The notes under the pieces are model-generated. The model ran no database searches and had not been told where the DNA came from. It was given only the letters and a program-made list of their open reading frames with translations. From a phage, in assembly GCA_012646185.1 (NCBI GenBank), contig GCA_012646185.1_4706.1: DNA of 64,000 nucleotides; one strand, written 5' to 3'. The position numbers and the translations under genes are program-made. Positions 44,535 through 61,130 of this stretch are shown piece by piece; the stretch's first letter is position 1; each line of letters begins with the position of its first letter.

Positions 44535-45986
44535 ATGAAACTTAAACAAAGCTGGAAAGACGAACTTCTCGCGTTAGTAAATAGCAAAAACAGCTTACAG
44601 CTGACATTAGCCGACGTAAAATTTGAACTAACTGAACCGGTAAGCGAAGTGCCCGGAACGGTTGTCGTTACGATCAAACCGAACGATGATAGCCGTTACT
44701 TTAACGAGCAGTCTCTGACCTACATCCGTCGAGACATCGCTAAAAACTTCACCGGGATCCCGTTACGGGTTATCGTTAAAAATGATACCGCCGTAAGGGA
44801 TATCATCAATACGATTGCTGAACGTTACGGATTGGTATTTGACACAACCATCGACTTCCTCGAATCCGAGCTGAATAAGCAGATTACGTTCGAAGACACC
44901 GGTATTAAAGACATTACGGTTCCGGTTGCAAACACGTCTTATGTTTGGGCTGGTAATCTTCAGTTCAATATCGCTAACGATACGTTGAGCTTGATTACGA
45001 TCATCAAGCAAACCAATCTTACGAATCTGGTTTATCTGGATGGTGTTGAATCTAACACATCGGGTTCGTTACTATTAGCAACGACCTCGGTTATCGGCGA
45101 AAACGGAAATGCCGAAACAACTGAAGGTGTCCTTGACGCCGCGTACTTCCAGAATATCCTGAACGTCATGGTTCGTTATGGTGATATTACCAGCGAACAA
45201 ATGCAACAAGCAATGCAGACAATTAACGGAAGCGAAGACGCTCGTAGAGTAGAGGTGCGGTCATACGGTGACGCCGAATTACTGGTAACCACCAAGAAAG
45301 ATTGGGTTATCGGTAGCCTTAAGGGTGCTATGGTTGTTGGTCACGCTTCACCTAAACCAATCCAATACGTTCTTAAAACAAAAGGCGGCACCATTATATT
45401 GTCATTAGATGGTTGGACAAATGTCAATATCGATTGGGGTGATGGGAATAAGACGACGCAGGACTCAGGCGATAATGAATATCAGCACAATTATGCGGAC
45501 ACTACAGAACGTACGATCGTCGCTACGGGTACCCCTACCAACGTTGGAGATACAGACGTACAGCAAAGCTTCACCGGTGGTAACATCACTGAAATCGTTG
45601 ACTGGAACAACGGATTACCTAAGGCCCCATCATTACTTGCAGCGAACAGTTTAACTAAGGTTCCCGATTATATCCCGGCATACTGGACATCGTTAGAAGG
45701 TATGTTTACGCGATGCAGCGCTATTAACGACGTGAACATCACCAAATGGAACACCCGCAACGTTACTTCAATGAAGGACCTCTTCTACGGTTGCGCTACG
45801 TTCAACCAACCGATCGGTTCGTGGGATGTTTCGTCTGTTAAGAATGCAGACAATATGTTGTCTGGGTGCTTCGCGTTCAATCAGGATCTGAGTGGTTGGA
45901 CATTCCCGGCAGGCACTTCACACATCAACTACGACGCCATGACCGCCGCATGGCAGGCTGGTTATAAACCACACTTCACCGAGTAA
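44535..45986 (+). CDS. two-domain protein: shared N-terminal module plus C-terminal DUF285/BspA-like repeats; candidate fiber or adhesin
   Basis: N-terminus parallels 3261-3788 and 7605-8435; C-terminus has repeats MFTRCSAINDVNITKWNTRNVTSMKDLFYGCATFNQPIGSWDVSSVKNADNMLSGCFAFNQDLSGW. Confidence 0.65.
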   Translation: MKLKQSWKDELLALVNSKNSLQLTLADVKFELTEPVSEVPGTVVVTIKPNDDSRYFNEQSLTYIRRDIAKNFTGIPLRVIVKNDTAVRDIINTIAERYGLVFDTTIDFLESELNKQITFEDTGIKDITVPVANTSYVWAGNLQFNIANDTLSLITIIKQTNLTNLVYLDGVESNTSGSLLLATTSVIGENGNAETTEGVLDAAYFQNILNVMVRYGDITSEQMQQAMQTINGSEDARRVEVRSYGDAELLVTTKKDWVIGSLKGAMVVGHASPKPIQYVLKTKGGTIILSLDGWTNVNIDWGDGNKTTQDSGDNEYQHNYADTTERTIVATGTPTNVGDTDVQQSFTGGNITEIVDWNNGLPKAPSLLAANSLTKVPDYIPAYWTSLEGMFTRCSAINDVNITKWNTRNVTSMKDLFYGCATFNQPIGSWDVSSVKNADNMLSGCFAFNQDLSGWTFPAGTSHINYDAMTAAWQAGYKPHFTE

Positions 45987-46044
45987 AAAAAAAAAAAAAT
46001 AGATAGCATATCTTCCTCCCTACCCATAACGGGCGGGGAGGAAG
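45985..46044. terminator. bidirectional terminator at convergent junction: A15 run (45985-45999) plus extended GC hairpin (46012-46044)
   Basis: cttcctccc/gggaggaag arms with inner ccc/ggg stem; T15 in minus sense follows the hairpin after stop of 46062-46400. Confidence 0.55.
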
Positions 46045-47358: not shown

Positions 47359-48933
47359 TTACAATTCAAAATCTTCATCGATAACACGCTGGGTAAGCAC
47401 TTTGTCGCTGAAGAACTCCACCTTGCGCTGATGGTATTTACGGTGCGCTTCGATAGAAGTACATACCAGATACCAGAACGTTGGCGTCATTCCTTCAAAC
47501 TTCCCTTTCAGCTGACGCAGTCGCCCCAACACCTGAATGTTGCCGGTTCGTGACCCCATCGCTAACGTCATGAACGTCATCACCAAGTCAGGGAGGTCGA
47601 TACCTGTACCTGCCGATTTCACCGTCGTAACGCTAATATCGTTATCCAGCAAGACCATGAAATCTTCTTCAGCAGTATAAGGACCGATCTCTAGCTCAGG
47701 AATACGCTCACTGAGATAGTGCGACAACGACTTACACATATCAACGGTTGCACAATACACCAGCATCTTCATGCCTTCCTGATACTGGTTCATGAAACCT
47801 TTGATGATAACGGTATAGATGAAGTTAAAATACGCGAGTTTGAGTTGCTTGTTCTTCATGATAGACTGTTCGAATATCGTGTGTGAATAAGCTCCGCCAA
47901 ACCCTTTGTATCTGACTTTATCTGTACTGCGTAGTCGATATGTTACCGCATTTACCGCAATATATTTCTTGTATTCGCCTTTTGCATAACGGGCTTCTTT
48001 CGGATACATCAAATACAACATCTGTTCGATAAACGGATCATCGGACACCGCCGTTGCCGACAGATAAATGATTTCCGGAATACTGGCGTAACACTTGACC
48101 TTAAACAAGAAATGCAATGCTTCGTGACACTCGTCATGAATCAGCAAACCTATGCCGGTCTTTTCCCAAAACTCAGCGGGATGAAAGGCATATGGCGCAA
48201 CGCAGTTATTCTTCTCGTAGTCCGCAATATAACGTTGGAACATGTTCAAGGAGAACAATGCGATTTTGAAGTCGAGCTCACCTTGTTCAACCAAGGTTTG
48301 AAACTCCAGCATGCTGTAACGAGGAATGTCGGGATGTGGTGGATCCTCCTTAGCGTTCCCGCGTATCTCAATAACGTCCCCTGGTTCCATCCCGAAGAAG
48401 TTCAGCAGTGAGCTTCGCCAACCTGGCATGTATCTCGGCGACAGAATGATACCCGTCCGTACACCACGTCGGAAGGTAATCTCCTGCGACATGGCCGTTT
48501 TTCCTGACCCCGTTTGAGCGGTGTTTAGGCTCATTCTGAAGGGGGTATCCTTACCCCCGTCCATGTACTCCAACCATTCTTGCTGATCTTGACGCCATGG
48601 AAACTTCCATTTCTTTACGAACTCCACTTCTTTACCTGGTACCGGATCGTGATAGACGATTTCCAACCACTCTTTTCGTATCCCTCGGGAAAAGATAAAA
48701 TCCAAAAACGATTTCAACTGTTCACGGAGTAAGTATACCTCGCTATAATCGCTTCTCGCCGCGGCATACGTGTTTATGGTATCGGTAACCATTCTCCGTG
48801 TACGAGGGTCACGCCGTTTCCTCAGATGCAAACAACGGTCTCGAAGGTAATGGCCTATCAAATGGGCAAATCGAAGTCCGTATCCGCTCAGCCTCATGCC
48901 ATGCGAGAAGACGTCGATACGAGCTAACTTCAT
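47359..48933 (-). CDS. superfamily 2 helicase (DExH box)
   Basis: Walker A TAQTGSGKTAMS, motif II LLIHDECHE, SAT motif YLSATAV, motif VI QVLGRLRQ. Confidence 0.65.
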   Translation of the reverse strand: MKLARIDVFSHGMRLSGYGLRFAHLIGHYLRDRCLHLRKRRDPRTRRMVTDTINTYAAARSDYSEVYLLREQLKSFLDFIFSRGIRKEWLEIVYHDPVPGKEVEFVKKWKFPWRQDQQEWLEYMDGGKDTPFRMSLNTAQTGSGKTAMSQEITFRRGVRTGIILSPRYMPGWRSSLLNFFGMEPGDVIEIRGNAKEDPPHPDIPRYSMLEFQTLVEQGELDFKIALFSLNMFQRYIADYEKNNCVAPYAFHPAEFWEKTGIGLLIHDECHEALHFLFKVKCYASIPEIIYLSATAVSDDPFIEQMLYLMYPKEARYAKGEYKKYIAVNAVTYRLRSTDKVRYKGFGGAYSHTIFEQSIMKNKQLKLAYFNFIYTVIIKGFMNQYQEGMKMLVYCATVDMCKSLSHYLSERIPELEIGPYTAEEDFMVLLDNDISVTTVKSAGTGIDLPDLVMTFMTLAMGSRTGNIQVLGRLRQLKGKFEGMTPTFWYLVCTSIEAHRKYHQRKVEFFSDKVLTQRVIDEDFEL

Positions 48934-50936
48934 AACGTGATTACATCCTCCGGTTTAGGTTCTTTACGCGGTAACAGCATGTAGTCGATCGGATGATCTG
49001 GCTTCATGGTTGGGATATAACTGTTCGGGTTTTGGAACGCATCCAGTTGCTCTTGGTGAGCGAACTTCATACTCAAGGAGCGCATGTTCATGTTCTTCTT
49101 GAAGGTACTGAAGTATCGTGTTGTTCCCTGTTTCGGCATGCGATAATCTTTCGTGTGCGGCGAACGAATCATGCTGGCGTAGAGAATAACATCGAGATGC
49201 GAAAGGTTCATTCGCAGACGCTGAGCGCACAGACGATGCCAATAGTACAGCACGTTTGCAACTTCTTCCGGCGTTGCTTCGTCTTCCGAGAGGAATCCGG
49301 CACTGAAAGAACCTTTCCCGAATTTGAACTCACGTTCGATTTCTTTTGCGTATTCCATCATGTTTTTGTGGATTAACGGCATCTGGAATAACGTACGTGA
49401 ATTGTCCCAATGTTTCAAGTCGAAAATCACAATCCCGTCAGGCGTCACTTCCCAGCTATGGCGTTTAAGATAACGGATAAACGCTTTACTCGGTACAACA
49501 GGACGACCGCAGAAATCGAAATTGACTTTGAGCTTACGATAGCTTTCATCTTTCCTGTCGTAAATCTCCATATCGCAAAGCGTCATGTTGAACAGACGCT
49601 GTGGTATCAGCGAACTGATTTCTTCCGCTTCGGCTACGTCGTACAACATGTTAGCAAGACCTAACTTCATCTTAATCAACACGTGTTTACCTTTCAGCTC
49701 ACGTGCGAGTTTGATGTCGTTCATGTTCTGGCTGTAGCGAAGGATATGCTGATATTCCGGTGGGATTGGTGCTGTAGAGACCGTTGACGAACCATCGTGG
49801 TGTTTGGTAGAAAGAATGTTCTGCGTTACCTGTTGCGAGCAGGTACGCGCTGCACCATCGCCGACATTATCAGTCAATGCGAAGTTATGACTTAATTCAC
49901 CGTAACACGTTGTACATACCCCAGCAGGATCGGGATGATGACAATAGTTAACGGAGCGCATGCGTACCGTCGTGCCGATCAATTCTTTCATGTGTGGTTG
50001 TATCGCTACCAACGAACCGTCGTCACGAATAATGAATCGACCGTGGAAACCACGCAGGTCGGTCTCATCGCGGATTGGCATCGGGATGGTCTCTTTACTA
50101 CCACAATCACCAGGATGAAGTCGTTGTACAACCGCTGTCGCTATCTGAAGTTCACGACCGAAATATTCAGACTTTTTAATCTGCTCTTTGTTGAACAGCA
50201 ACGATTTCGCCGCAGAACGACTTTCTTTCAAGCTGTCAGGAAGAGAGATCAAACCGGCTGCGTACGACCGCATTACCGGATCGCGGAATATCTCGGAGTT
50301 AATATCAGTCAAGAATCCACGCATCCCAATACACTGTAGCACCTGCCCAATCGAAACGTGTTCGGTTCTTACCGCACGTGCGATAGGGTTTGCATGTAAC
50401 GTTTTATCGGTGCTCAGTACCTTCGTCAGTTTCTTGTATGCGCTTTCAATGCCTTCGCGGGTGGGTTCCGCTTCGGCGATGATTTTCTTAACTTCGGGGT
50501 GTACAGTAATCTGATAAAAATCATCCGCGCAAATCGTTGTTACGTATTCCTCCAACGCATACGTAAAGAAGTTATATACATTGTTAAACATATCGAACAG
50601 TGCTTTCCAGAGAACCTCACGATTCTCTTGTGGATAAGCATACATGCATTGACGATACGCTGCGCTTTGCAACGCAACCGATGAACCCGCTGTGAACTTG
50701 CGTTTATCGACCAGGTTCTCTTTTGTCAATGGTGTCTCAGGATACATGCGATGTACAGACCAGTGCATGTAACTAAAGAAAATGCGTCGCGCACGTAATT
50801 CATGAACGCCATCGTCCATCTCGATATATACACGGTCATTAGGCTGTGCCCATTCGAACACCTCATCAACCGGCCAATGCATAAGCTCGCGTGCCCTCAC
50901 ACGACGTTTCGTGGTGGTTGTCTGTGTTGTAATCAT
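48930..50936 (-). CDS. RNA polymerase beta-prime-like subunit (C-terminal-type fragment of a split phage multisubunit RNAP)
   Basis: RSVNYCHHPDPAGVCTTCYG (nt ~49900-49945) parallels E. coli beta-prime SVVSCDTDFGVCAHCYG; following GDGAARTCSQQVTQNILSTKHHDG parallels the trigger-loop start [28 protein letters not shown]. Confidence 0.7.
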   Translation of the reverse strand: MITTQTTTTKRRVRARELMHWPVDEVFEWAQPNDRVYIEMDDGVHELRARRIFFSYMHWSVHRMYPETPLTKENLVDKRKFTAGSSVALQSAAYRQCMYAYPQENREVLWKALFDMFNNVYNFFTYALEEYVTTICADDFYQITVHPEVKKIIAEAEPTREGIESAYKKLTKVLSTDKTLHANPIARAVRTEHVSIGQVLQCIGMRGFLTDINSEIFRDPVMRSYAAGLISLPDSLKESRSAAKSLLFNKEQIKKSEYFGRELQIATAVVQRLHPGDCGSKETIPMPIRDETDLRGFHGRFIIRDDGSLVAIQPHMKELIGTTVRMRSVNYCHHPDPAGVCTTCYGELSHNFALTDNVGDGAARTCSQQVTQNILSTKHHDGSSTVSTAPIPPEYQHILRYSQNMNDIKLARELKGKHVLIKMKLGLANMLYDVAEAEEISSLIPQRLFNMTLCDMEIYDRKDESYRKLKVNFDFCGRPVVPSKAFIRYLKRHSWEVTPDGIVIFDLKHWDNSRTLFQMPLIHKNMMEYAKEIEREFKFGKGSFSAGFLSEDEATPEEVANVLYYWHRLCAQRLRMNLSHLDVILYASMIRSPHTKDYRMPKQGTTRYFSTFKKNMNMRSLSMKFAHQEQLDAFQNPNSYIPTMKPDHPIDYMLLPRKEPKPEDVITL

Positions 50937-51081
50937 TATTACTTTCCGATTTAAATGGTTTTATCATACGGTTTACCAATTCCGTTGGAATTTACTATCA
51001 TCATGATAGCATCGGGAATCCCTTCTCTTAGGTTATGTAGGTGTTAATATATCTCCACTGCCGGAGTAAAAGTCGGCAACA

Positions 51082-51567
51082 TTACCCGGCTTTCTGTCGT
51101 AGAGCGTACGGATCCATAGCGTCTGATATATCCGAAACAACCGTGAGAATGAAGCCCTTTATCTGTCTCACTTCGGTCACACGCAATCCTTTATCGTTAC
51201 GGTATACGTTTTCTTCACCAACCAACTTTGGTCGGATAACATAAACGCCATCAACATACGGGAATGTCGAATACGGATAAACACCAATAGAAATGATGTT
51301 TGGATAATCGCCTCGAAGGTCGCGTCCGAACTTATCAACTCGACCATAAATCGTTCCATCCGCACCTTCCACCTCAATGAGATCATTTCGAATATCCTGA
51401 AATAGCTGTTCTAAGGTGTCGGCGGGGTACGCGTATGCGACGCCTAACGCACGATCCTCGATCGTTTTGACATTGAATCCGTTAAGCCAAACAATCCGTT
51501 CATTCGCCCATGTTTCTTCATATACCGTTAACCCATCGCCGTATATGTTGGCGTGTGCTATCTCCAT
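51082..51567 (-). CDS. hypothetical protein (161 aa)
   Basis: ORF with GAGGAAATGAGATT before ATG. Confidence 0.5.
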   Translation of the reverse strand: MEIAHANIYGDGLTVYEETWANERIVWLNGFNVKTIEDRALGVAYAYPADTLEQLFQDIRNDLIEVEGADGTIYGRVDKFGRDLRGDYPNIISIGVYPYSTFPYVDGVYVIRPKLVGEENVYRNDKGLRVTEVRQIKGFILTVVSDISDAMDPYALRQKAG

Positions 51568-51668
51568 AATCTCATTTCCTCTTCTACGTAGAAATAGATG
51601 ACATGTTGGATATACGTTGCCTTTGCATATATTGCTTTATTTCCGTCAGAAATAACGGAAAATAAAAA

Positions 51669-51711
51669 CAACGACATAATTCCCTCCCACCTCCACATGG
51701 GAGAGGGAGGG
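51669..51711 (-). promoter_or_regulatory. extended GC hairpin CCCTCCC/GGGAGGG (inner ctcc/ggag stem) followed on minus strand by AATTATGTCGTTG
   Basis: Arms 51682-51688 and 51705-51711; directly after stop of 51725-52087. Confidence 0.4.
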
Positions 51712-51724
51712 TTATTCGTGTTTA

Positions 51725-52087
51725 TTATTCTACGCTGTCTTCTTCCGTATCTTCCTCTTCAGAACCATCGAATGTTTTCATTGTGACGGTGGTATCCCAG
51801 TTAGCCGCGTAATCGGCCATCGCTTCACGCAGCGCTTCTTCACCAGCATCACCAGCCAGGTCAAGTACAACCAAACCTTGTGCGACGTTTTGAGCAACGG
51901 TATCAATAACGGTTGCATCTTCTTCAAAACTACGTACGGGTTCAATGGTACCTACATCAACAGCATAGTTCGTGGTTGCTGTAAACACGGCGACTTGTAG
52001 CGCATTGCTATCTTCATCATGCAGTGCTGCTTCAATACCGATTGGACGAGCCAGTTCTTGCAGTGTTAATTTGCGAATTAAGTTCAT
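51725..52087 (-). CDS. small acidic protein (120 aa); paralog of 52586-52996 product
   Basis: Shares AQGLVVLDLAGDAGEEAL versus ARGLMLLELFGEQGRTEL segment; acidic C-terminus EEEDTEEDSVE. Confidence 0.5.
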   Translation of the reverse strand: MNLIRKLTLQELARPIGIEAALHDEDSNALQVAVFTATTNYAVDVGTIEPVRSFEEDATVIDTVAQNVAQGLVVLDLAGDAGEEALREAMADYAANWDTTVTMKTFDGSEEEDTEEDSVE

Positions 52088-52119
52088 TATGTTTTCCTCA
52101 GGTGAATGTTAGCAATCGT

Positions 52120-52467
52120 TTAAAACTTTAAAACTTTTTCGATACGATGGTTGACGAGTTCATTGAACGACTCTTCAGCTTGTTCGATGATTTCATCAAC
52201 GTCGATATCTAATTGTTGGGGTTGGATAACATGCTCTTTCATGGTTTCCAGCCAGTATTCGGCTTTAATCATGACGTTAGCGACGTGTTCGACCTGGCTG
52301 CGTATGTCGACGATCTGGCAGTCAGGATTGTTAATATCGATGATGTGTCCGTGGTGGTTGATAAAACCTAGCTTATTTGATGCCCTTACCGCATCGCGGG
52401 TAAGTTCTTGCAAGATTAAATTATTAACGTAGTTCACTGCTACGGAACGATTTTCGTTATCACTCAT
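52120..52467 (-). CDS. hypothetical protein (~115 aa)
   Basis: Start moved to ATG 52467 (MSDNENR) with AAAGAGG SD. Confidence 0.5.
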   Translation of the reverse strand: MSDNENRSVAVNYVNNLILQELTRDAVRASNKLGFINHHGHIIDINNPDCQIVDIRSQVEHVANVMIKAEYWLETMKEHVIQPQQLDIDVDEIIEQAEESFNELVNHRIEKVLKF

Positions 52468-52530
52468 ACCAGGGATCCTCTTTAAGTCATCACATTCTAG
52501 TGTTAAGCAGTTAAAATAAACCGTTCCTTT

Positions 52531-52574
52531 TATCAGCATAAACATCCTCCTCCCACCACATGGGCAGGAGGAGG
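52531..52574 (-). promoter_or_regulatory. GC hairpin (cctcctcc/ggaggagg) followed on minus strand by TTTATGCTGAT box
   Basis: Inverted repeat 52546-52553/52567-52574; box about 80 nt upstream of the SD-supported start at 52467. Confidence 0.4.
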
Positions 52575-52585
52575 CGTAATATGCA

Positions 52586-52996
52586 TCAGAAAGGAGGACG
52601 ATCTTTAAATTCTAGCAACGTGTCTTCGAAGCAAGCGATAAGTTCAGACTGCAATTCGGTACGGCCTTGTTCACCGAAGAGTTCCAGCAACATTAACCCC
52701 CGAGCGGTCTTCGTAGCAACCTCTTCGCAGATGCGGAGATCGTGAACTTCATCATCGCCGACATCTTTACGTAACTGCGCTGCAATGGGCTTAAGATTGC
52801 CGTTTTCATCGTGTTCGTCACGAAATGCATCATAAGCCGCATCGATGTTCGCGATCCGTGTCAACCCTTCAGAATCCCGCCAGTCTCGATATAATCCAAG
52901 AAGACGGTTATGATTCTTCGTTTTGACGTTCGGTGCCGGAAGGTTGCGCAACAGATGTGGTGTAATCATTGCTATCACGCTATCCGAATGATCCAT
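52586..52996 (-). CDS. small protein (136 aa); paralog of 51725-52087 product
   Basis: See 51725-52087. Confidence 0.5.
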   Translation of the reverse strand: MDHSDSVIAMITPHLLRNLPAPNVKTKNHNRLLGLYRDWRDSEGLTRIANIDAAYDAFRDEHDENGNLKPIAAQLRKDVGDDEVHDLRICEEVATKTARGLMLLELFGEQGRTELQSELIACFEDTLLEFKDRPPF

Positions 52997-53007
52997 CGTA
53001 TACCTCG

Positions 53008-55176
53008 TTAGCTTTCGCAGTCATCTGCGTCGATGATTTGTCCGCCAGCAACGTTCAGTTGATGATACAGAATCCTCAACGCACGGTTGCCGCCAATGGG
53101 ATACTTCTCGAAGTTGGTTGCAATAGGAATCGCTGACGGTTTATCGGTCGCATAGATGCTTTCAGTGATGCTATCCACCTGTTTTGGATTGTTCGCATAA
53201 TCCATAAAGACGCTCGCGAACCATCCGCCAGCAAAGGCGGTAACTTCGCGATGTTCAGATTCACCACAGTAACGAGTTGGTTGCTCTTTACCCGGAGAAC
53301 TGTATTTATCGCTATTACTGAGTTTCGACGGTAGTCCATGCGCTTGCAGTTTAGGGATGCCCACCGCTGACCAGTCGTTCGCCGTCTTCTCCAACATCAT
53401 GATGTACGTGTCACCGATCGCAATATCGTTCTTGGTTGTCCGCCACTGCCCAGAACGCCCACGATACCGTACAGGACCTTTCTTCAACGGGAACTCACGA
53501 ATCAGATTCTCCATACGTTCTGAACCTGCTGCGATACTGTCTGTCGGGATATAAACTTCCGTACCGTGGCGTTGTACGTACCGTAAATGATCCCATTTAT
53601 CCTCATCCGTGATACAGTATTTTTCAACAACCTGTTCCACGAATTCAGGACTGACGATATAGTAGTAGCGCATCAGTGTGTTCCAAGCGGTCTCCAGATC
53701 GCCTGCATCCATCACCGGTTTCAGTTCACGCATGATCTGATCACCAACGCCGTTGATGTAAGGTGCGTTAACACGACTTAAACTCATCCTTTTGATTACC
53801 GTACTATCGTCGAACATGAAGTCCGCAACGTTACCCCATTGGTCAACCGGCATTTCATCGTCTTCCATGATGTCGGTTACGACGAATTTATCACCCGCCA
53901 TACCGGTGAATTTAAACCCGATACCTGGAACAACGTCGTACGTGTACGTGATGGTCACACGCCAATCATCGAGATTCTCTTTACGATAATCGCGGGTCGG
54001 TAACACATGACGTAGCTGTCCGTTGGGATTGCGGATATCAATACCGTGTTCAGCATCAGCCAGGTTCAACCACCACATCACCGTTTGATGATGACGTATC
54101 GGCGTACCAACGCGTTCACGTTCGTACTTACGAACAGCATCCTGAATTCGGGTGTAAAGCAAACCAATCGCGTTCTCGTATTTCAGGAATTGACGATACG
54201 GAGGACGCATCTTCTCTTCCATCATAATCGCACGCTCGCGGGCTTGACGTCCAGAACGACGATGCCGGTCGCTGACAACATCGATATCCGTTACACGCGC
54301 ATTCGGTTCCGCGTAAGTGAGGTCGTCGTAAACATAATCCACGCGCTGAAGATTACACGTCATCATGTCAACAACGCTGAGGATAGGATCGATTTCGCGT
54401 GTTGCTGCAAGTAACCCATCCTTACGAATACGCTCACCGTTCTCGGGTATTGCTTGATATACCTCATCGTCACCGTAGAGATTGATTGGGTATCGTGATT
54501 TACCTGATGTGATCGTCCGCTTCTCAATGCCGGTACTGGTGAAATGCTTCAATACACCACGACGGGCAACACCACCATCCTCGATACACTGATAGAAGCT
54601 ACCGAAACACACTTTGCAATCGCGACCGTAACCCCACTCGCGCGTTTCTTGATTGATCGCTGGGCTTTCCATCAAACGAGAATATCGCGGTACGATCTGG
54701 CCTCGACGAAGGGAATGGAACAAGTTGGTTGGTCGAAAACGGAAACCGTACTGCTGATGCATGATGTGATGCTCAGGCACTTCAAGCAAGCGTAGCTCGT
54801 GACGGTTACCATCCTCTTGGTTTTCATACAGCACGTAATGCATCGTGTTTGTTTTGATGCTGTTTGCTGTATGCCCCGGTTGGAAACGTGGGATGATATC
54901 TATGATGCGAGATTCGACTGGAAACTCTACTGACCACGTGTTCTGTCCGTACTGGTATTCGATCCCCGTCGTCAGTCGGGACGGTTTCGCATCTTTGATA
55001 ACCAACGCTTGGCTAAGATGTCCACCAAACATCGCAGCGCGCTGTGCTGAGTTATAATGCAGTAGCCCGTTAAGTCCAGTCCCTACGCCAGTATACTCCT
55101 GTTTAATGGGAATGATTTTACCTTCAGCGATTGCCTGCTTCACAGATTCATAAAGAGGTTTTTCTTTATAATGCAT
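53008..55176 (-). CDS. RNA polymerase beta-like subunit (C-terminal-type fragment of a split phage multisubunit RNAP)
   Basis: [40 protein letters not shown] parallels E. coli beta [56 protein letters not shown] parallels [45 protein letters not shown] parallels [28 protein letters not shown], with matching spacing. Start moved to ATG 55176 with AGGAAG SD. Confidence 0.75.
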   Translation of the reverse strand: [722 protein letters not shown]

Positions 55177-55206
55177 AGGACTTCCTATTATCGAATTGAG
55201 GTACGT

Positions 55207-55561
55207 CATGTCTAACACGCCCCTGAACGACTTTCTTAAGACAAACCCCGATGACCTCATCCACGATCTTGATTTCAGGAACGTTGTTGAGATGCATCTG
55301 GAATATTTCAAAAATGCCGGACTGGTCTCTACGATAGACATACCACCCGAACGCGCCTACGAATTCGATGGTAACTTTTATGGATTGTGTCGTGTTCTGC
55401 TCGGCGAGGGTAGCGAACCAATGCACTGGATAACCATGAGACTCAATGGTTATCGCGACCCTACGGAATACACCGCCGATGTTCTAACCATGAAGATTGT
55501 CGATACAAGCGCAATCAACACATTAAAACAACAGTACCGCACAATCCACTACAGCGCTTAA
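55207..55561 (+). CDS. hypothetical protein (~118 aa), lone plus-strand gene inside the minus block
   Basis: ATG at 55207 preceded by GAGGT; followed by hairpin 55567-55595; could be spurious. Confidence 0.35.
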
Positions 55562-55566
55562 GATAA

Positions 55567-55606
55567 CCCTCCCACAGCGTAAAGCGTAGGGAGGGCATTT
55601 ATGCCG
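55567..55606. terminator. GC hairpin CCCTCCC/GGGAGGG (15-nt loop) followed on plus strand by CATTTATGCCG
   Basis: Arms 55567-55573 and 55589-55595 between convergent ORFs 55207-55561 (+) and 55627-56907 (-). Confidence 0.45.
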
Positions 55607-55626: not shown

Positions 55627-56907
55627 TCAGAAACGATTCACAGTACGTCCTGTCCACGCGCTCAGGATGTTGTTACGTTCCATCTCAGCCCGACGACGTA
55701 AACCGTTTGGCGACTGCGGTGCTTGCGGCATCCCCCATCCAGCCGGTTGCATACCCATGCCCGGCCAAGCAGCGTTATTGAACATCGTACCGTTACGTTC
55801 CGCAACACGGTTCATCAGCGCATCAAACGTGCTATTACCTGCCGGTTGGTTACCGCCGCTTTCCCACTGATTAGGTTGGACAGGTGCGGTTTTACCCAAC
55901 AGGTTATCGATCACACTGCCTGTTGAAGCAGGACGCGGTTGCATACCTTCATGTGCAGCTGCTGATGGATTTGGCTTAACCGTCGGCTGTGGACGACTGT
56001 TCAGCGTTACACCCATGTTGTATTTCGCTGGCGGAATCTGACCACGATGTTGATTGATCGGTTCAAAATCCTCAACCCAGGTAACATCACAGTAGCCGTT
56101 CTCTTTACCGTCGTACTTATCACCAAACAGTTTGATGAGATTGTTCAGCGGTTCCATCAGCTTAGCGAAGCTGTGGATAAGACAATCGAAATACGGAGCA
56201 TGAGGATCGCTTGACCCAGCGTTGTACGTTTCACTTACCTCACCCGCGTGCGGGATAACGTACTCAACCAGGTTTCTCAGCATGTTAAGATCTTTCTTGG
56301 AAATCTCAACACCACACCAGTACGTTTTCTTATCTTTCGTGCTGATGTGTTCTTCTTCCATGAACGGGAAAGTAACGACCGCAACGCGGGTCATCTTCTT
56401 ACCCATGTAGGTTGCGCCGGTACGACGAAGATAAATTTTGGACAGCGTATACGGTGTGTCGCGTTTCAGCCAAACGGTGACCAGTTTGCCCAGGGTCGTT
56501 AGTGTTTTATCGCTGGCGTCCGCAAGGATGTTGAAGAACTCTTTTTGCTTCGGTCCGAAACGTTTTGCTTCTTTAGGATTGATTGCGGTTTCAACCATCC
56601 AAATCAGCATGGAGCATAGCGTGGCGTTAAAACGAACAACCATCGCACGACGCAGGAACTGAAGTACTTCCGATTCGCCGTTCATCACGTCTTCACTTAG
56701 CGGATGGAACAGCACACGTTCAGCCAGCTGATTTCCGGTACGAACTTCAGAAACCGGCATCAGCAACGGCATGCTTTCCACGGTAGCGGCAACTGCAACA
56801 ACTTTACCATCCCCATCCGTAAAACGATATTCTAATTCGTGGGCGTCATTCTCAAAATAGTTAACGCTCTGTAGTGCTTTGCGATAAGCTTCGATAAGCT
56901 TCGACAT
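55627..56907 (-). CDS. hypothetical protein (426 aa) with low-complexity P/Q/G/N/M-rich C-terminal region
   Basis: C-terminal ~120 aa rich in Pro, Gln, Gly, Asn, Met (GMQPAGWGMPQAPQSPNG). Confidence 0.55.
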   Translation of the reverse strand: MSKLIEAYRKALQSVNYFENDAHELEYRFTDGDGKVVAVAATVESMPLLMPVSEVRTGNQLAERVLFHPLSEDVMNGESEVLQFLRRAMVVRFNATLCSMLIWMVETAINPKEAKRFGPKQKEFFNILADASDKTLTTLGKLVTVWLKRDTPYTLSKIYLRRTGATYMGKKMTRVAVVTFPFMEEEHISTKDKKTYWCGVEISKKDLNMLRNLVEYVIPHAGEVSETYNAGSSDPHAPYFDCLIHSFAKLMEPLNNLIKLFGDKYDGKENGYCDVTWVEDFEPINQHRGQIPPAKYNMGVTLNSRPQPTVKPNPSAAAHEGMQPRPASTGSVIDNLLGKTAPVQPNQWESGGNQPAGNSTFDALMNRVAERNGTMFNNAAWPGMGMQPAGWGMPQAPQSPNGLRRRAEMERNNILSAWTGRTVNRF

Positions 56908-56962: not shown

Positions 56963-58549
56963 TTAGAAGTTGCCTTTGGTAGTTACCGCATCCACCAGGT
57001 TAAACAAATCAACGCTCAGCTTATACACCTCCTGCTGGCTACGGTTGAGCAGCGGGCTGTATGCAGATGGGTTGATGTTCGGCATGGTGTACGGAATCGG
57101 TGCAGAACCGTCAACGCTGATCTTGAACTGGCTGTCCAGGAACAGGTTAATCGCGCCGCTCACCATAACCGCATTCGGGTTGTTGCCCAACATGGAGGGT
57201 AGGATATTGGTAATCATGTCAGAACGCATTTGTTCAGCAGCACGGTTACAATCGTATCCTTTAATGAACGGTACTGCGTCGGTAACCGCAACCGCCCACT
57301 GACCAGGCATGATACCGAGTTCTGGGTGACCATGGTTGTCAGCAATGAAACGGAACGATTCCAACATGCGGTATGTCATCGCAGCAGGCATCATTGCAGC
57401 AAGCGATGAGCAATACAGCGTTGGATAATCGATCACGTCCCAGCTCTGACTATCGGTCGGCATCCAACCAAACTCGGTGGTTGCTGATGTACCACGACGA
57501 GCTTCCACATACGGGAATAACGTTAAGACATCACGGATATGTTCACCGAACATCCGTTTCATGTCCGCCCAACTCAGGCTGCCGCTGAACGCGAATCCTT
57601 CATCACGCATAATCGCACCGAATACCGGATGCGCAACCAACGGTTCTTCGCGAACAGCTTGAGCGGCTTCTACGTAAATATCCTCGTTCTCTGCGCTACC
57701 TGGATGAGACCCGCTTTCGTACGTCTGACGAATAGCCCCAACATTATCGAAGGCTTTTCTTAGATAAATGGTTGGGATGTTCGTATCGGCACTAGCGGGT
57801 TTGATTTTCTCTGTTGCGAAACACATTGCTGCTTCCACACCACGGAAAACCGGTTCCGGTTGCGGTGGATAGGATGTACGATGAACCACATCAGCGTAGG
57901 CGGGATCGAACTGTTGCATTACGTTCTGCATGGCTGGGTCCATGAACTGGTTATCAAAACCACCATTGCCCACCCAACGCGCTGTTGATGCATAGGTCAG
58001 CGTATCCTGAACACGAGTACTGAACTGAACATCACGATTAACCGGGTCGTATGCGCCGGTCAACAGGTTCGTTGCGTCCATCGGGGTTGCACGAACGATT
58101 TGCTTACCGAACATATCCGTTGTGGTTGTTTCGGTTACCTGGATTACGTTCGTGAAGAAGAACACCAGTTCGTTCGGCAGATCGATAGCGCGCGTTGTAA
58201 ACGCATCGAGGCTTACAGAATGGTCGGTGTATCCAGAAATGTAATGGACACGCTTGGTTCCTGGTGCGAGGGTCAAGGATTCTTCTACCGCCATCATGAA
58301 ATGGAAACGACGTGTGCCCCAACCATTCGCAATCTCCGAAACCCCCTCAGGTTCTGCAGACTGCTGCAACAAACCGGTTGCAAGCTTATTGATTGCTGAT
58401 GGTGTTGTTGCCGTACCGAACTTCGTCGTGTTAATGAAGTCTTCGATGCTACGCATGCTATCTGCGTGGAATCGTAGTGGGCGACGTTGTACGTTGTTGT
58501 ACGGTGCGGTTTCAACCATCAGTATTTCACGAACATTCATCGGGATCAT
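56963..58549 (-). CDS. hypothetical protein (528 aa)
   Basis: Long ORF, co-oriented, 1-nt gap to upstream gene. Confidence 0.6.
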   Translation of the reverse strand: MIPMNVREILMVETAPYNNVQRRPLRFHADSMRSIEDFINTTKFGTATTPSAINKLATGLLQQSAEPEGVSEIANGWGTRRFHFMMAVEESLTLAPGTKRVHYISGYTDHSVSLDAFTTRAIDLPNELVFFFTNVIQVTETTTTDMFGKQIVRATPMDATNLLTGAYDPVNRDVQFSTRVQDTLTYASTARWVGNGGFDNQFMDPAMQNVMQQFDPAYADVVHRTSYPPQPEPVFRGVEAAMCFATEKIKPASADTNIPTIYLRKAFDNVGAIRQTYESGSHPGSAENEDIYVEAAQAVREEPLVAHPVFGAIMRDEGFAFSGSLSWADMKRMFGEHIRDVLTLFPYVEARRGTSATTEFGWMPTDSQSWDVIDYPTLYCSSLAAMMPAAMTYRMLESFRFIADNHGHPELGIMPGQWAVAVTDAVPFIKGYDCNRAAEQMRSDMITNILPSMLGNNPNAVMVSGAINLFLDSQFKISVDGSAPIPYTMPNINPSAYSPLLNRSQQEVYKLSVDLFNLVDAVTTKGNF

Positions 58550-58550: not shown

Positions 58551-60137
58551 TTATTTTTTTCCTCTTAAATTTACTACGTGTTCATTTAATCGAACAACTA
58601 ATTGCACAAGCTGCTGACGGATATCTGCTGGACAAAGCATCAATCCTTTACGGTCAGCTGGGACTTTCTCAAGGATTTCCGGGCCTGCTGCTGAAACATC
58701 CCAGTCCCATTCACAAAACGCATCGGCCACCATGTTAATACCGACAACCGGTAAAGTTGTACGTTCATCTTCATACATGGCGTGTGGATACAATTTATTG
58801 ACAGTAATGATCTCCTGTGGTTTTAATTGGTGGATAATCTGATAAACATCGTCGCGTTTGACCTGGATACCTACGGTCAGCGCTGCCAGTTGAGGAAAAC
58901 CCCAATGGTCTAATAAGCAAGCTGCAATCGCTAACGCTTTTGCTTGATGCACGGCTTCAATCGGTGCCAGACTTCTCGCCGGAAGATGGCTATCAAGCAA
59001 CCATTGTGCCAGTGCTCGGCATCCACGGTTGATTGGTTTTAACTCAACGGTGTCATCATGTTTAGCGTACGTGTATCCGTCGTAACGTTTTGCGATACGC
59101 GCATACATGTCTTCAACTTTACCGTAAGGTGCCGTTTCGTCGACGTCGTGCAACACACGTTCCATCTGGGTAAGATACGCGATATCAAGAATGAGTACAC
59201 GCGGTGAACGTTTATCTTTCACCATCAACGCATCAATCACGCCTTGACTGTCTTCATCTTGCGCGTTCCCTCGTGGGGTTTTCTCACGAATCGGTCCGCT
59301 GAAACGTCGTTCCGTACAAAGGTTATTCACATAGCTAAAGATCAGTGTTACCAGATGCGTACAACTCACCAACACCCCATCTTTAACGACAGGCTGTACG
59401 GCTTGGTCCAAGTCGCGTACGGCGAGACGGCGGACGATGGCTTGTGAACGCAACCAGCCGGGCACTTTCTCCGTCGACATGTAATCCACGGTCATCGACA
59501 GCGTGATCTTTTTATCACCCGTCTGTGCGCGGATATAGTCTTCCAGTCGGTCGTAAGCGGCGATATCGTGAATGCGTGTTTTATACATCAACGACATAGC
59601 CACTTCTTCTTTACGAACCGTTCCGTACGTTTTCCCTGCGTCAATCAGAAACTCTGCCCAAATCGGCACCATCAGACGGACGTAGATCGCTAACGCCGTT
59701 AACTCAACGTAATCATTTCGTAAATAGGTTTTCTCAGGAATATCATCCTCACCTAATGTTGTTTTCATGTCCGGCGGTAATTTTACCCAACCCGGGGTAT
59801 TACACAACGCCAGAATCTCTTCGTACACAACCGGTTTGTAAATTTCACCAACAGCGCGACTCAACTCCTCCATTTGTTGTTGTGGAGCAATGTAGTTATC
59901 CATCGCTTCACGTGCTTTAACGAACCCTTCGAAGATGTCGTCAATTCGACGTGGGTTCTTTTGTTCTATCCAGGCGAGATACTTGTTAATCTCCCGCATC
60001 TGATTGCTAGCCATATCCCCATCAATCTTGATGTAACCCTGACCTGAAAATTCCACAGTACGTCCATCACGGTGTTTGATGAGATAGTGATCCAGCTTTT
60101 CTTTTCCTTGCGTCGTAATGACGGGCACTATGTGCAT
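58551..60137 (-). CDS. hypothetical protein (~528 aa)
   Basis: Start moved to ATG 60137 (MHIVPV) with AAGAGG SD. Confidence 0.6.
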   Translation of the reverse strand: MHIVPVITTQGKEKLDHYLIKHRDGRTVEFSGQGYIKIDGDMASNQMREINKYLAWIEQKNPRRIDDIFEGFVKAREAMDNYIAPQQQMEELSRAVGEIYKPVVYEEILALCNTPGWVKLPPDMKTTLGEDDIPEKTYLRNDYVELTALAIYVRLMVPIWAEFLIDAGKTYGTVRKEEVAMSLMYKTRIHDIAAYDRLEDYIRAQTGDKKITLSMTVDYMSTEKVPGWLRSQAIVRRLAVRDLDQAVQPVVKDGVLVSCTHLVTLIFSYVNNLCTERRFSGPIREKTPRGNAQDEDSQGVIDALMVKDKRSPRVLILDIAYLTQMERVLHDVDETAPYGKVEDMYARIAKRYDGYTYAKHDDTVELKPINRGCRALAQWLLDSHLPARSLAPIEAVHQAKALAIAACLLDHWGFPQLAALTVGIQVKRDDVYQIIHQLKPQEIITVNKLYPHAMYEDERTTLPVVGINMVADAFCEWDWDVSAAGPEILEKVPADRKGLMLCPADIRQQLVQLVVRLNEHVVNLRGKK

Positions 60138-60194
60138 AACAACCTCTTTTCGCGGTTCCCTGTTAAAACGTCTTCTGTGACGTCTACCACAAAG

Positions 60195-60341: not shown

Positions 60342-61130
60342 TTAGAACGCTAAGCCATCAAAGGCTATGGACGGATCGTCGTCGTCATTTGCGCTTGGCG
60401 CATCCCAACGGGTATCAGGGGCCGCTGAAGCCGAACTTGATGCGTTAGAGTTACCGTTGTACTGGCCATTACCAGCATTACGGTTACCGCCGCCGTTGTT
60501 ATTGTTACGGTTATAGCTATTGTTGCCATTACTTACGCTACGGCTTTCACCGTCGAAATTGGTTGCGAGGATGCTCGGCAACACTGCGCGATGAATACGT
60601 ACAAATTCCAACGCACAAAGCGGAGAAACAACCCCGATCTGTAAAGGTTGCCCAGACTCATCAACCAGAGCGTGGAAACGCGGCGGCTTGAATACGAATT
60701 GGATGTTCGGTTTTTGGTACGCTGTTACAGCGATATATACCGAACCATCATCGTTCTTACCAACCCATGTTGTACTTTCGGTAATCTGTTTCTTCTTACC
60801 TGGGTTATTGCGATCGTCGATAACCTTTTCGTTCTTCATCGCAAAACGTTGGCCTGGTTTACCCTTAGCAACCTGCTCGAGGATCGCAAGCAGGTTATAG
60901 AACGCGTATGAACTCATGCGCGCCCAAATGCTTTCAGCGCGACCCTGCTGGTCTTTACGACCGGTGTAAACCGTGATACGCGGTTGATTCTTAGCAACGC
61001 TAATTTTCAATGAGGGGATTGAATTACCGCCCTCAACCTTTTCGTCCGCCCACAGTTTCCAGTTGTTGTCGTCATACGCTGTAGGAATAATGTTTCCTTG
61101 TGGTTTACTGCCCGAATTCCAATTGCTCAT
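60342..61130 (-). CDS. putative single-stranded DNA-binding protein (SSB-like architecture)
   Basis: Globular N-terminal part, then Asn/Gly-rich linker (NRNNNNGGGNRNAGNGQYNGNSN) and acidic C-terminal tip DDDDPSIAFDGLAF, reminiscent of SSB tails ending DDDIPF. Confidence 0.45.
   Translation of the reverse strand: MSNWNSGSKPQGNIIPTAYDDNNWKLWADEKVEGGNSIPSLKISVAKNQPRITVYTGRKDQQGRAESIWARMSSYAFYNLLAILEQVAKGKPGQRFAMKNEKVIDDRNNPGKKKQITESTTWVGKNDDGSVYIAVTAYQKPNIQFVFKPPRFHALVDESGQPLQIGVVSPLCALEFVRIHRAVLPSILATNFDGESRSVSNGNNSYNRNNNNGGGNRNAGNGQYNGNSNASSSASAAPDTRWDAPSANDDDDPSIAFDGLAF

What the first reader, a model, noticed from the sequence alone, without database searches (positions are those of the whole stretch)
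48930..55176. Phage-encoded multisubunit RNA polymerase: beta-prime-like and beta-like subunits
Two large minus-strand proteins carry hallmark segments of bacterial RNAP catalytic subunits. The product of 48930-50936 has the C-x8-C-x2-C-YG zinc motif and trigger-loop start of beta-prime. The product of 53008-55176 has three collinear beta segments with the right spacing. Each looks like only the C-terminal portion of its subunit, which fits the split-gene arrangement of phiKZ-like jumbo phages. Four small genes and an SF2 helicase sit in the same block. The N-terminal subunit fragments and the Asp-triad motif were not found in this window.
Basis: partly seen in the sequence, partly recalled or inferred. 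Interest (0 to 1): 0.85.

Follow-up and report, generated by a model that had tools for sequence, protein, structure and literature searches.

The report
Jumbo phage non-virion RNA polymerase genes
These genes encode the C-terminal halves of the beta-prime-like and beta-like subunits, and nearby the sigma-like fifth subunit, of the second, non-packaged RNA polymerase of a Goslar-like E. coli jumbo phage; the enzyme is real but already well described.

Summary
The observation and its interpretation both hold, but the feature is already known. The window is about 95% identical in DNA to Escherichia phage Goslar, a nucleus-forming jumbo phage.

- **48930-50936 (-):** 668 aa, 99.6% identical to Goslar gp165. 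[quoted passage not shown] - **53008-55176 (-):** 722 aa, 100% identical to Goslar gp171. It matches phiKZ gp71-73 (7OGP chain C, E=6e-86), the betaC subunit, and keeps both conserved lysines.
- **58551-60137 (-):**

The N-terminal halves lie outside the window. In Goslar they are gp247 (about 4 kb beyond the window end) and gp39. These are not the packaged enzyme. Goslar virion proteomics labels gp165, gp171 and gp175 "nvRNAP" at under one copy per virion, and the virion enzyme is gp78/196/205/207/210.

Side observations:
- four Goslarvirus-only small genes lie between betaC and beta'C;
- phiKZ-type terminator hairpins followed by TTATGCYG recur in the window;
- the Goslar beta'N Asp-triad motif appears split by two group I introns.

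The parts
48930..50936 (-). nvRNAP beta'C subunit (668 aa), orthologue of phiKZ gp74 and Goslar gp165
   Evidence: PDB 7OGP_D E=1.6e-86 over residues 11-654. PHROG 3015 E=1e-169. 99.6% aa identity to Goslar gp165. NCBIfam rpoC profile E=7e-10 over 165-387. 221 codon differences from relative L009, only 21 amino-acid changing.
50124..50354 (-). F-loop and bridge-helix region of beta'C (residues 195-271)
   Evidence: Aligns with E. coli beta' 733-805 and with phiKZ gp74, whose bridge helix is L242-Y279.
49791..50111 (-). Zinc-binding domain (C278, C332, C341, C344) and first trigger helix (to H379/H380) of beta'C
   Evidence: Corresponds to phiKZ C288/C341/C350/C353 and E. coli C814/C888/C895/C898. 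All four Cys are unchanged in Goslar and L009.
53008..55176 (-). nvRNAP betaC subunit (722 aa), orthologue of phiKZ gp71-73 and Goslar gp171; uninterrupted, with no intron
   Evidence: PDB 7OGP_C E=6e-86. PHROG 3295 E=1.5e-180. 100% aa identity to Goslar gp171, with 58 of 58 nt differences synonymous. 233 codon differences from L009, only 3 amino-acid changing. No Rfam intron anywhere in the window.
53881..53925 (-). betaC motif GFK422FTGMAGDK430F carrying the two conserved DPBB lysines
   Evidence: Aligns with E. coli [12 protein letters not shown] and with phiKZ K386/K394, same 8-residue spacing.
58551..60137 (-).
   Evidence: PDB 9RJS_B/7OGP_B E=5e-28 over query residues 68-563 (numbered on the 573-aa mechanical ORF 58551-60272) against 20-517 of 521. 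PHROG 3209 E=4e-68. 99.8% aa identity to Goslar gp175. Labelled nvRNAP in the Goslar proteomics table. 141 codon differences from L009, 1 amino-acid changing.
47359..48933 (-). SF2 helicase (524 aa, Goslar gp164). Its ATG overlaps the beta'C stop codon by 4 nt (ATGA). Conserved neighbour of beta'C.
   Evidence: PHROG 16 DNA helicase E=1e-25. NCBIfam XPB helicase E=6e-7. Weak ResIII, DEAD and Helicase_C hits. Same position as the RAY gp250 'non-virion SF2 helicase', which is a core gene and nuclear.
51082..52996 (-). Four small Goslarvirus-specific ORFs inserted between betaC and beta'C: 52586-52996 (136 aa), 52120-52470 (116 aa), 51725-52087 (120 aa), 51082-51567 (161 aa)
   Evidence: No Pfam or PHROG hit. 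No tblastn hit in 50,697 phage records other than Goslar. Same order and sizes in relative L009.
52534..52574 (-). GC-rich hairpin (52546-52574) followed by TTATGCTG (52534-52541), a phiKZ-type terminator motif inside the block, after the first small ORF
   Evidence: Identical in Goslar; L009 keeps the stem and TTATGCTG with one loop and one spacer change. Matches the phiKZ terminator consensus BCCYCCCCHWWDGGGRRGGBYTTATKYYGT (PMC10914365).
55568..55606 (.). Hairpin CCCTCCC...GGGAGGG between the gp173-like and gp172-like genes; read on the + strand it is followed by TTATGCCG (55599-55606)
56963..58549 (-). [quoted passage not shown]
   Evidence: 99.6% aa identity to Goslar gp174. Goslar PicA is gp174. 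PHROG 3141.
55627..56907 (-). gp173-like conserved protein (426 aa), by position the counterpart of nucleus-associated PhiPA3 gp64
   Evidence: PHROG 3520 E=6e-64. Synteny described. 99.5% aa identity to Goslar gp173.
60342..61130 (-). ChmC (nucleus-associated RNA-binding protein) orthologue, Goslar gp176; upstream neighbour of the gp68-like gene
   Evidence: Sits where Goslar gp176 lies in the collinear alignment. 99.6% aa identity to its L009 counterpart. Goslar ChmC is gp176. PHROG 3284 E=1e-35.

Best explanation
The window comes from a Goslar-like E. coli jumbo phage (Chimalliviridae, genus Goslarvirus). It carries three of the five genes of the phage's non-virion multisubunit RNA polymerase (nvRNAP).

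The subunits in the window:
- beta'C (48930-50936) supplies the bridge helix, the trigger loop and a zinc-binding domain.
- betaC (53008-55176) supplies the second double-psi beta-barrel with its two DNA/RNA-contacting lysines, plus the flap and the hybrid-binding regions.
- The gp68-like protein (58551-60137) is an integral, highly diverged sigma-like subunit.

How it works, inferred from the phiKZ enzyme:
- These three assemble with beta'N, which carries the Mg-binding DFDGD, and with betaN. Both are encoded outside the window.
- The result is a rifampicin-resistant enzyme with no alpha or omega subunits.
- Its genes are transcribed early by the injected virion RNAP. The enzyme then works inside the phage nucleus on middle and late genes.
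- It starts at a minimal TATG start-site motif. The sigma-like subunit opens the DNA and the betaN lobe reads the motif.

Shown here: orthology, conservation of the catalytic-cycle elements, synteny and strong purifying selection. Inferred: assembly, activity, timing and promoter use in this particular phage.
For: Identity of the phage:
- 95-96% nt identity and full collinearity with Goslar.

Orthology:
- Full-length matches to the solved phiKZ nvRNAP chains gp74 (E=1.6e-86), gp71-73 (E=6e-86) and gp68 (E=5e-28).
- Weaker matches to the AR9 nvRNAP chains (E=1e-13 and 2e-17) and to bacterial beta' and beta.
- PHROG RNAP families at E about 1e-170 to 1e-180.

Functional elements:
- Zn ligands, bridge helix, trigger helix and the two lysines are all conserved, matching those described for phiKZ.

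Purifying selection:
- Against Goslar, betaC has 58 of 58 synonymous differences and beta'C has 81 of 84.
- Against L009 at about 11% nt divergence, betaC has 3 amino-acid changes in 233 differing codons and the gp68-like gene has 1 in 141.

Synteny:
- The order ChmC, gp68-like, PicA, gp173-like, betaC, beta'C, helicase reproduces the conserved PhiPA3/phiKZ/RAY cluster.

Non-virion status:
- In Goslar, gp165, gp171 and gp175 are labelled nvRNAP at under 1 copy per virion, and the vRNAP is gp78/196/205/207/210.
- No BLASTP similarity to the four Goslar vRNAP subunits compared; gp196 was not compared.

Missing halves:
- They exist in Goslar. gp247 matches phiKZ gp55 (E=5e-62) and gp39 matches phiKZ gp123 (E=1e-40).

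Biochemistry and structure of the phiKZ enzyme: PMC4666361, PMC8287921 and PMC12809450.

Host promoters: sigma-70-like sites are not enriched in the block, 22 found against 28.8 expected.
Against: - There is no experiment on this phage. Everything mechanistic is transferred from phiKZ, which is only about 30% identical, and from Goslar.
- The window lacks beta'N and betaN. A complete enzyme is shown only for Goslar, not for this genome.
- Curated cellular-RNAP profiles do not reach their cut-offs. Pfam Rpb2_6 scores 16.3 bits against a cut-off of 23.4, and no Rpb1 domain is found for beta'C. NCBIfam rpoC scores 37 bits against 963.
- No structure prediction or superposition was done for the two large subunits.
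- The promoter motif actually used by the Goslar-type enzyme is unknown.
Confidence: 0.97

Rival explanations
1. They are subunits of the virion-packaged RNA polymerase (vRNAP), which is injected with the DNA to transcribe early genes.
For: Chimalliviruses encode two split multisubunit RNAPs. From motifs alone the two sets cannot be told apart. Trace peptides of gp165 and gp175 were seen in Goslar virion preparations.
Against: The best matches are to the phiKZ non-virion chains over their full length. The Goslar vRNAP is gp78/196/205/207/210, all encoded elsewhere. BLASTP against four of these five subunits gives only chance-level hits; gp196 was not compared. Estimated virion copy numbers are 0-0.9. 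The RAY orthologues localise inside the phage nucleus, not with capsids.
Confidence: 0.02
2. They are degenerate RNAP-derived proteins that no longer act in transcription, either pseudo-enzymes or proteins co-opted for another nucleic-acid function.
For: Similarity to cellular beta and beta' is low (24-26% over about 200-340 residues). GNKG is changed to GDKF. Curated Pfam and NCBIfam cut-offs are not met.
Against: The same degree of divergence is seen in phiKZ gp74 and gp71-73, which form a biochemically active and structurally solved polymerase. All catalytic-cycle elements assigned to these halves are retained. Purifying selection is very strong.
Confidence: 0.01

Closest known systems
Escherichia phage vB_EcoM_Goslar gp165, gp171 and gp175 (NC_048170; Goslarvirus, Chimalliviridae)
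   Same: Collinear locus at 95-96% nt identity. The proteins are 99.6%, 100% and 99.8% identical. RefSeq annotates gp165 and gp171 as 'RNA polymerase beta subunit'. All three are labelled nvRNAP in Goslar proteomics.
   Different: Only synonymous or near-neutral differences: 3, 0 and 1 amino-acid changes. RefSeq calls beta'C a 'beta subunit' and leaves gp175 as hypothetical.
phiKZ non-virion RNA polymerase (gp55, gp68, gp71-73, gp74, gp123; PDB 7OGP, 7OGR, 8QUE, 9RJS)
   Same: Same split of beta' and beta into N- and C-terminal polypeptides, plus an integral sigma-like fifth subunit. Full-length alignments. Same Zn ligands, bridge and trigger helices and two lysines. Same gene neighbourhood, gp67-gp75.
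   Different: About 30% amino-acid identity. The betaC gene is uninterrupted here, whereas phiKZ gp71-73 and PhiPA3 gp65-66 carry an intron with an HNH gene. Here about 2 kb with four extra small genes separates betaC from beta'C; in phiKZ, PhiPA3 and RAY the two genes carry consecutive gene numbers.
Bacillus phage AR9 / PBS2 nvRNAP (PDB 7S00, 7S01, 7UM0, 7UM1)
   Same: A five-subunit split beta/beta' enzyme with a sigma-like promoter-specificity subunit. Detectable homology: E=1.3e-13 for beta'C and 2.3e-17 for betaC.
   Different: Much more distant. AR9 does not form a phage nucleus. It recognises uracil-containing template-strand promoters through its sigma-like subunit.
Bacterial RNAP beta (RpoB) and beta' (RpoC), including the naturally split cyanobacterial beta'
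   Same: Homologous catalytic-core elements. beta'C 195-382 aligns with E. coli beta' 733-939 and betaC 295-601 with E. coli beta 928-1241. Cyanobacterial split beta' chains are also hit (8GZG_Z).
   Different: 24-26% identity over only part of the length. No alpha or omega partners. Both large subunits are split. Scores are far below the curated family cut-offs.

Membership tests
Chimallivirus nvRNAP beta'C (phiKZ gp74 family, PHROG 3015) | Full-length collinear sequence similarity to gp74 | tested here: met
   7OGP_D E=1.6e-86, residues 11-654 against 4-671. PHROG 3015 E=1e-169, covering 3-652 of 653.
Chimallivirus nvRNAP beta'C (phiKZ gp74 family, PHROG 3015) | Bridge helix, four-Cys zinc site and first trigger helix | tested here: met
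   C278, C332, C341 and C344, the bridge region 232-271 and LSTKHH 375-380 all align with phiKZ and E. coli.
Chimallivirus nvRNAP betaC (phiKZ gp71-73 family, PHROG 3295) | Full-length similarity to gp71-73, including beta regions a10-a16 and the DPBB with two conserved lysines | tested here: met
   7OGP_C E=6e-86 in two stretches covering 33-345 and 394-712. PHROG 3295 E=1.5e-180. K422 and K430 correspond to phiKZ K386 and K394. Landmarks are collinear with E. coli beta.
Chimallivirus nvRNAP fifth subunit (phiKZ gp68 family, PHROG 3209) | Full-length similarity to gp68 and a gene located in the nvRNAP/ChmC cluster | tested here: met
   9RJS_B E=4.6e-28, query residues 68-563 (573-aa mechanical ORF) against 20-517. 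PHROG 3209 E=4e-68. Lies next to ChmC and PicA.
Complete five-subunit nvRNAP | beta'N with the DFDGD Mg-binding triad and betaN encoded in the same genome | tested here: inconclusive
   Neither is in the window. Goslar has gp247 (phiKZ gp55, E=5e-62) and gp39 (phiKZ gp123, E=1e-40). The rest of this phage's genome was not available.
Non-virion (as opposed to virion) RNAP | Not packaged in virions; early expressed; nuclear localisation | not testable with these tools
   Literature on near-identical Goslar proteins gives 0-0.9 copies per virion and labels them nvRNAP. RAY orthologues are nuclear. No data exist for this phage itself.
Chimallivirus virion RNAP (Goslar gp78/196/205/207/210; phiKZ gp80/149/178/180) | Sequence similarity to vRNAP subunits | tested here: not met
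   BLASTP against Goslar gp205, gp206, gp207 and gp210 (and gp78 for betaC only) gives E>=0.08. gp196 was not compared.
Cellular RpoB/RpoC families (Pfam Rpb1/Rpb2 domains; NCBIfam TIGR02386, TIGR02013) | Score at or above the curated family cut-off | tested here: not met
   Pfam Rpb2_6 scores 16.3 bits against 23.4, and there is no Rpb1 hit. rpoC_TIGR scores 37.3 bits against 963.5 and rpoB scores 15-19 bits against 800-900. These are homologous, but not members of the cellular equivalog families.
Multisubunit RNAP fold (structural superposition) | Predicted 3D structure superposes on beta/beta' | not tested
   Not run for the large subunits. I judged sequence identity to experimentally solved phiKZ chains sufficient.

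The most novel reading that the evidence does not exclude
The roughly 2-kb, four-gene insertion between betaC and beta'C is found only in Goslar-like phages. It may encode lineage-specific partners or regulators of the nvRNAP.

The first gene, 52586-52996, starts 11 nt after betaC and lies upstream of the first terminator hairpin, so it is probably co-transcribed with betaC. It is only 54% identical between phages whose betaC proteins are 99.6% identical.

A related reading is also not excluded. The conserved hairpin-TTATGCYG elements end in the TATG start-site motif of the phiKZ nvRNAP. They could therefore act as combined terminator-promoter modules and supply the 'missing' specificity determinant of TATG promoters.
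Probability: 0.1. Interest if true: 0.5.

Novelty: already known. Interest (0 to 1): 0.15.

Why it matters
The enzyme class is biologically remarkable. It is a split polymerase with no alpha or omega subunits and an embedded sigma-like subunit, and it makes jumbo-phage transcription independent of the host inside a phage nucleus. However, it has been purified, solved by cryo-EM and mapped in Goslar itself.

The practical value here is annotation. In public assemblies the very same proteins are filed as 'hypothetical protein [Escherichia coli / Salmonella / Shigella]' on contigs of about 240 kb. Recognising them flags those contigs as Goslar-like jumbo phage genomes.

Modest leads for follow-up are the Goslarvirus-specific insertion between betaC and beta'C and the phiKZ-type terminator elements. 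The split Asp-triad exon in Goslar is a third.

Tried and rejected
- **Pfam alone** nearly misses both proteins. I rejected this as negative evidence because solved-structure, PHROG and NCBIfam searches are decisive.
- **gp68 orthologue:** I looked first in the two ORFs nearest betaC (55627-56907 and 56963-58549). Neither has a PDB match. The orthologue is the next ORF, 58551-60137.
- **Exact k-mer enrichment in intergenic regions** gave no promoter-like motif. ATATTAMC, a phiKZ-early-like element seen upstream of the gp68-like and beta'C genes, is not enriched: 7 matches against 5.5 expected. Dropped.
- **Hairpin+TTATGCYG:** I first read this as a Shine-Dalgarno plus start codon, then as a new promoter. 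The ATG is not the start codon of the downstream gene. The element matches the published phiKZ terminator consensus, so I report it as a known kind of terminator.
- **Single-intron splicing models for Goslar gp247** give no D-x-D-x-D in frame. They are replaced by a two-intron, micro-exon model.
- **AlphaFold2 of the 136-aa protein 52586-52996** with a 6-sequence alignment gave mean pLDDT 49.5. That is too low for a fold search, so none was run.
- **Not run:** structure prediction of the large subunits, and the large profile and metagenome scans. I judged them unnecessary.

Full report
**What the window is.** The flagged interval, and the whole window, match Escherichia phage vB_EcoM_Goslar (NC_048170; Goslarvirus, a nucleus-forming jumbo phage). 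Identity is 95-96% in nucleotides and the two are fully collinear. No other record among 50,697 phage genomes matches at the DNA level. The window corresponds to roughly Goslar 99.5-165.5 kb.

**The observation.**
- ORFs 48930-50936 (-) and 53008-55176 (-) exist as described.
- The first contains C332-x8-C341-x2-C344-YG, a fourth Cys at 278, and LSTKHH at 375-380.
- BLASTP aligns residues 195-382 with E. coli beta' 733-939 (E=9e-8). This covers the F-loop, the bridge helix, the zinc site C814/C888/C895/C898 and the first trigger helix.
- In the second protein, residues 295-601 align with E. coli beta 928-1241 (E=3e-8).
- Five hand-matched landmarks, at residues 44, 198, 428, 462 and 638, fall collinearly on beta 676, 813, 1071, 1105 and 1271.
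- The mechanical ORF extends to 55341, but 55176 is the true start.

**What they are.**
- The 668-aa protein aligns end to end with phiKZ gp74 (PDB 7OGP_D, E=1.6e-86). The 722-aa protein aligns with phiKZ gp71-73 (7OGP_C, E=6e-86). Weaker hits go to AR9 nvRNAP chains and to bacterial beta'/beta.
- PHROGs 3015 and 3295 ('RNA polymerase beta subunit') match at E=1e-169 and 1.5e-180.
- gp74 and gp71-73 are the beta'C and betaC subunits of the purified five-subunit phiKZ non-virion RNAP (PMC4666361). Its cryo-EM structure shows the gp74 bridge helix, trigger helix and zinc site C288/C341/C350/C353, and the gp71-73 lysines K386/K394 (PMC8287921). All are conserved here, with the lysines at K422 and K430.
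- Pfam barely sees these proteins (Rpb2_6 at 16.3 bits, below cut-off). NCBIfam rpoC reaches E=7e-10 but is far below its equivalog cut-off. They are homologues of cellular beta/beta', not members of those families.

**A third subunit.** ORF 58551-60137 (-) is the orthologue of phiKZ gp68 (9RJS_B/7OGP_B, E=5e-28, full length; PHROG 3209, E=4e-68). gp68 is the integral sigma-like fifth subunit, required for assembly and DNA binding.

**Non-virion, not virion.**
- Its Table S4 labels gp165, gp171 and gp175 'nvRNAP', with estimated copy numbers of 0.17-0.40, 0 and 0.39-0.92 per virion.
- BLASTP of the window proteins against four of the five Goslar vRNAP subunits (gp207, gp205, gp210; gp78 for betaC) gives only chance-level hits; gp196 was not compared.
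- The RAY orthologues (gp248, gp249) and the neighbouring SF2 helicase (gp250) localise in the phage nucleus.

**The missing halves.**
- The window has no D[FY]DGD in a long frame and no further RNAP gene.
- In Goslar, gp247 matches phiKZ gp55, which is beta'N (E=5e-62). It lies next to the nuclear-shell gene chmA, about 4 kb beyond the window's right end.
- Goslar gp39 matches phiKZ gp123, which is betaN (E=1e-40), and lies near the major capsid gene.

**Selection.**

| Gene | vs Goslar: amino-acid changes / differing codons | vs L009: amino-acid changes / differing codons |
|---|---|---|
| betaC | 0 / 58 | 3 / 233 |
| beta'C | 3 / 84 | 21 / 221 |
| gp68-like | 1 / 20 | 1 / 141 |

L009 is a third Goslar-like phage from a metagenome contig (Logan SRR14307655), about 11% diverged in nucleotides. 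In beta'C none of the changes against L009 touches a Zn ligand.

**Neighbourhood.**
- On the minus strand the order is ChmC (60342-61130), gp68-like, PicA (56963-58549), gp173-like (55627-56907), a plus-strand gp172-like gene, betaC, four small ORFs, beta'C, then the SF2 helicase (47359-48933), whose start overlaps the beta'C stop by 4 nt.
- This reproduces the conserved PhiPA3 gp61-67 / phiKZ gp67-75 cluster.
- Two differences from phiKZ and PhiPA3: betaC is not interrupted by an intron, and about 2 kb with four small ORFs separates betaC from beta'C.
- These four ORFs have no Pfam or PHROG hit and no tblastn hit in phages other than Goslar. They are conserved in order and size in L009.
- The first, 52586-52996, is only 54% identical to its L009 counterpart although the flanking betaC is 99.6% identical. 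Local nt identity drops to 59-73%.
- An AlphaFold2 model of this protein was low-confidence (pLDDT 49.5).

**Mechanism.**
- By homology, beta'N and beta'C together with betaN and betaC form the crab-claw core. The gp68-like subunit is built in, stabilises the core and opens the DNA.
- In phiKZ the betaN lobe reads the TATG start-site motif (PMC12809450).
- The nvRNAP genes are early genes read by the injected vRNAP, and the enzyme transcribes middle and late genes in the phage nucleus.
- Sigma-70-like promoters are not enriched in the block.
- These steps are inferred for this phage, not shown.

**Side observations.**
- **Terminator motif.** GC-rich hairpins of the form CCCTCCC...GGGAGGG recur in intergenic regions (16 pattern hits at about 12 loci, against 3.5 expected). 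Seven TTATGCYG copies sit directly after a hairpin, most of them of this form (12 TTATGCYG matches in all, against 4.1 expected). Stems and motif are conserved in Goslar and L009, while loops vary. This matches the conserved phiKZ terminator motif BCCYCCCCHWWDGGGRRGGBYTTATKYYGT (PMC10914365).
- **Split Asp triad in Goslar.** Goslar gp247 ends at ...YNADF. The intronless Eowyn homologue continues ...NADFDGDALGG. The only in-frame solution I found uses two group I introns around a 13-nt micro-exon, CGACGGTGACGCT. This would explain why a six-frame search for NADFDGD fails in Goslar.
- **Probable intein.** The L009 helicase has a 229-aa insertion inside Walker A with intein-like ends.
- **Public annotation.** The exact window proteins are filed as 'hypothetical protein [Escherichia coli]' on a 236-kb contig. 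Identical betaC occurs on 412 contigs from Salmonella, E. coli and other sources, some up to about 247 kb.

**Verdict.** The feature is already known, so interest is low.

Noticed in passing
window 58551-60137 (-): Orthologue of phiKZ gp68, the sigma-like fifth nvRNAP subunit (PDB E=5e-28). RefSeq annotates its Goslar counterpart only as 'hypothetical'.
   Followed up: yes
window 52534-52574, 55568-55606, 51683-51710, 46012-46044, 42287-42314, 40362-40387, 33924-33953, 32318-32345, 23832-23870, 17711-17737, 10850-10881: Recurrent intergenic GC-rich hairpins, mostly CCCTCCC...GGGAGGG, seven of them followed by TTATGCYG. The pattern gives 16 hits against 3.5 expected and the motif gives 12 against 4.1. 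Stems and motif are conserved in Goslar and L009 while loops vary. The element matches the published phiKZ terminator consensus (PMC10914365). The tail contains TATG, the phiKZ nvRNAP start-site motif, so a dual terminator-promoter role is not excluded.
   Followed up: partly
window 51082-52996 (-): Four small ORFs between betaC and beta'C have homologues only in Goslar-like phages. In phiKZ, PhiPA3 and RAY the two RNAP genes carry consecutive gene numbers. The first ORF (52586-52996) is a divergence hotspot: 54% aa identity to L009, where the flanking betaC is 99.6% identical. An AlphaFold2 model was uninformative (pLDDT 49.5).
   Followed up: partly
L003 (Goslar NC_048170 167000-216999) 860-3911, minus strand; about 4 kb beyond the window's right end: The Goslar nvRNAP beta'N gene (gp247) stops at ...YNADF. 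The catalytic DGD codons appear to sit on a 13-nt micro-exon (CGACGGTGACGCT, about L003 1205-1217) between two group I introns. Intron 1 carries HNH gp186 and scores 46.9 bits against Rfam Intron_gpI. Intron 2 is about 340 nt with a weak core hit (16.7 bits, E=0.058). Exon 3 is the annotated gp185. Both 5' exons end in U and both introns end in G, and the product reads NADF-DGDA-RLMLNTTMNNHIVPD. This is inference only and needs RNA data.
   Followed up: partly
L009 14016-16277 (+), orthologue of window 47359-48933: In this metagenomic Goslar-like phage the SF2 helicase carries a 229-aa insertion exactly inside the Walker A motif (AQTGSGK|AVRV...VTHN|TAMS). The ends look like an intein: it ends in HN and the next residue is Thr. 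The window's helicase has no insertion.
   Followed up: partly
window 48930-50936, 53008-55176, 58551-60137 (exact protein look-up): The exact beta'C sequence is NCBI EFI3629344.1, 'hypothetical protein [Escherichia coli]', on a 236,379-bp contig. Identical betaC occurs on 412 contigs from many sources. About 235-250-kb contigs carrying these proteins appear in isolate assemblies labelled Salmonella, E. coli, Shigella and Enterobacter. Goslar-like jumbo phages therefore seem to be frequent, unannotated passengers in enteric isolate sequencing.
   Followed up: no
window 56963-58549 (-), 55627-56907 (-), 60342-61130 (-), 55196-55561 (+): The nvRNAP genes are interleaved with phage-nucleus genes: PicA (protein import, Goslar gp174), a gp173-like protein, ChmC (RNA-binding, Goslar gp176) and a plus-strand gp172-like gene (PHROG 3455). 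PicA is markedly more diverged from L009 (85.6% aa; nt identity 74-78% across 57500-58500) than its neighbours.
   Followed up: partly
window 42304-44433 (+) and 44535-45986 (+): A plus-strand pair interrupts the minus-strand gene array. One is an SNF2/ResIII helicase (709-aa mechanical ORF, Goslar gp160). The other is a DUF7941 + DUF285 (BspA-like) protein (Goslar gp161). DUF7941 proteins form the filament cloud on Goslar virions according to the 2026 structure preprint.
   Followed up: no
window 55177-55341 (-): The mechanical ORF for betaC extends 55 codons upstream of the real start and overlaps the plus-strand gp172-like gene. This is an ORF-calling artefact, not an N-terminal extension.
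   Followed up: yes
window about 45985-46011 (minus-strand sense, just downstream of hairpin 46012-46044): A run of about 15 T follows the hairpin ...GGGAGGAAGATATGCTATCTA on the coding strand. It is conserved in Goslar and L009 and is an unusually long U-tract for these terminators.
   Followed up: no
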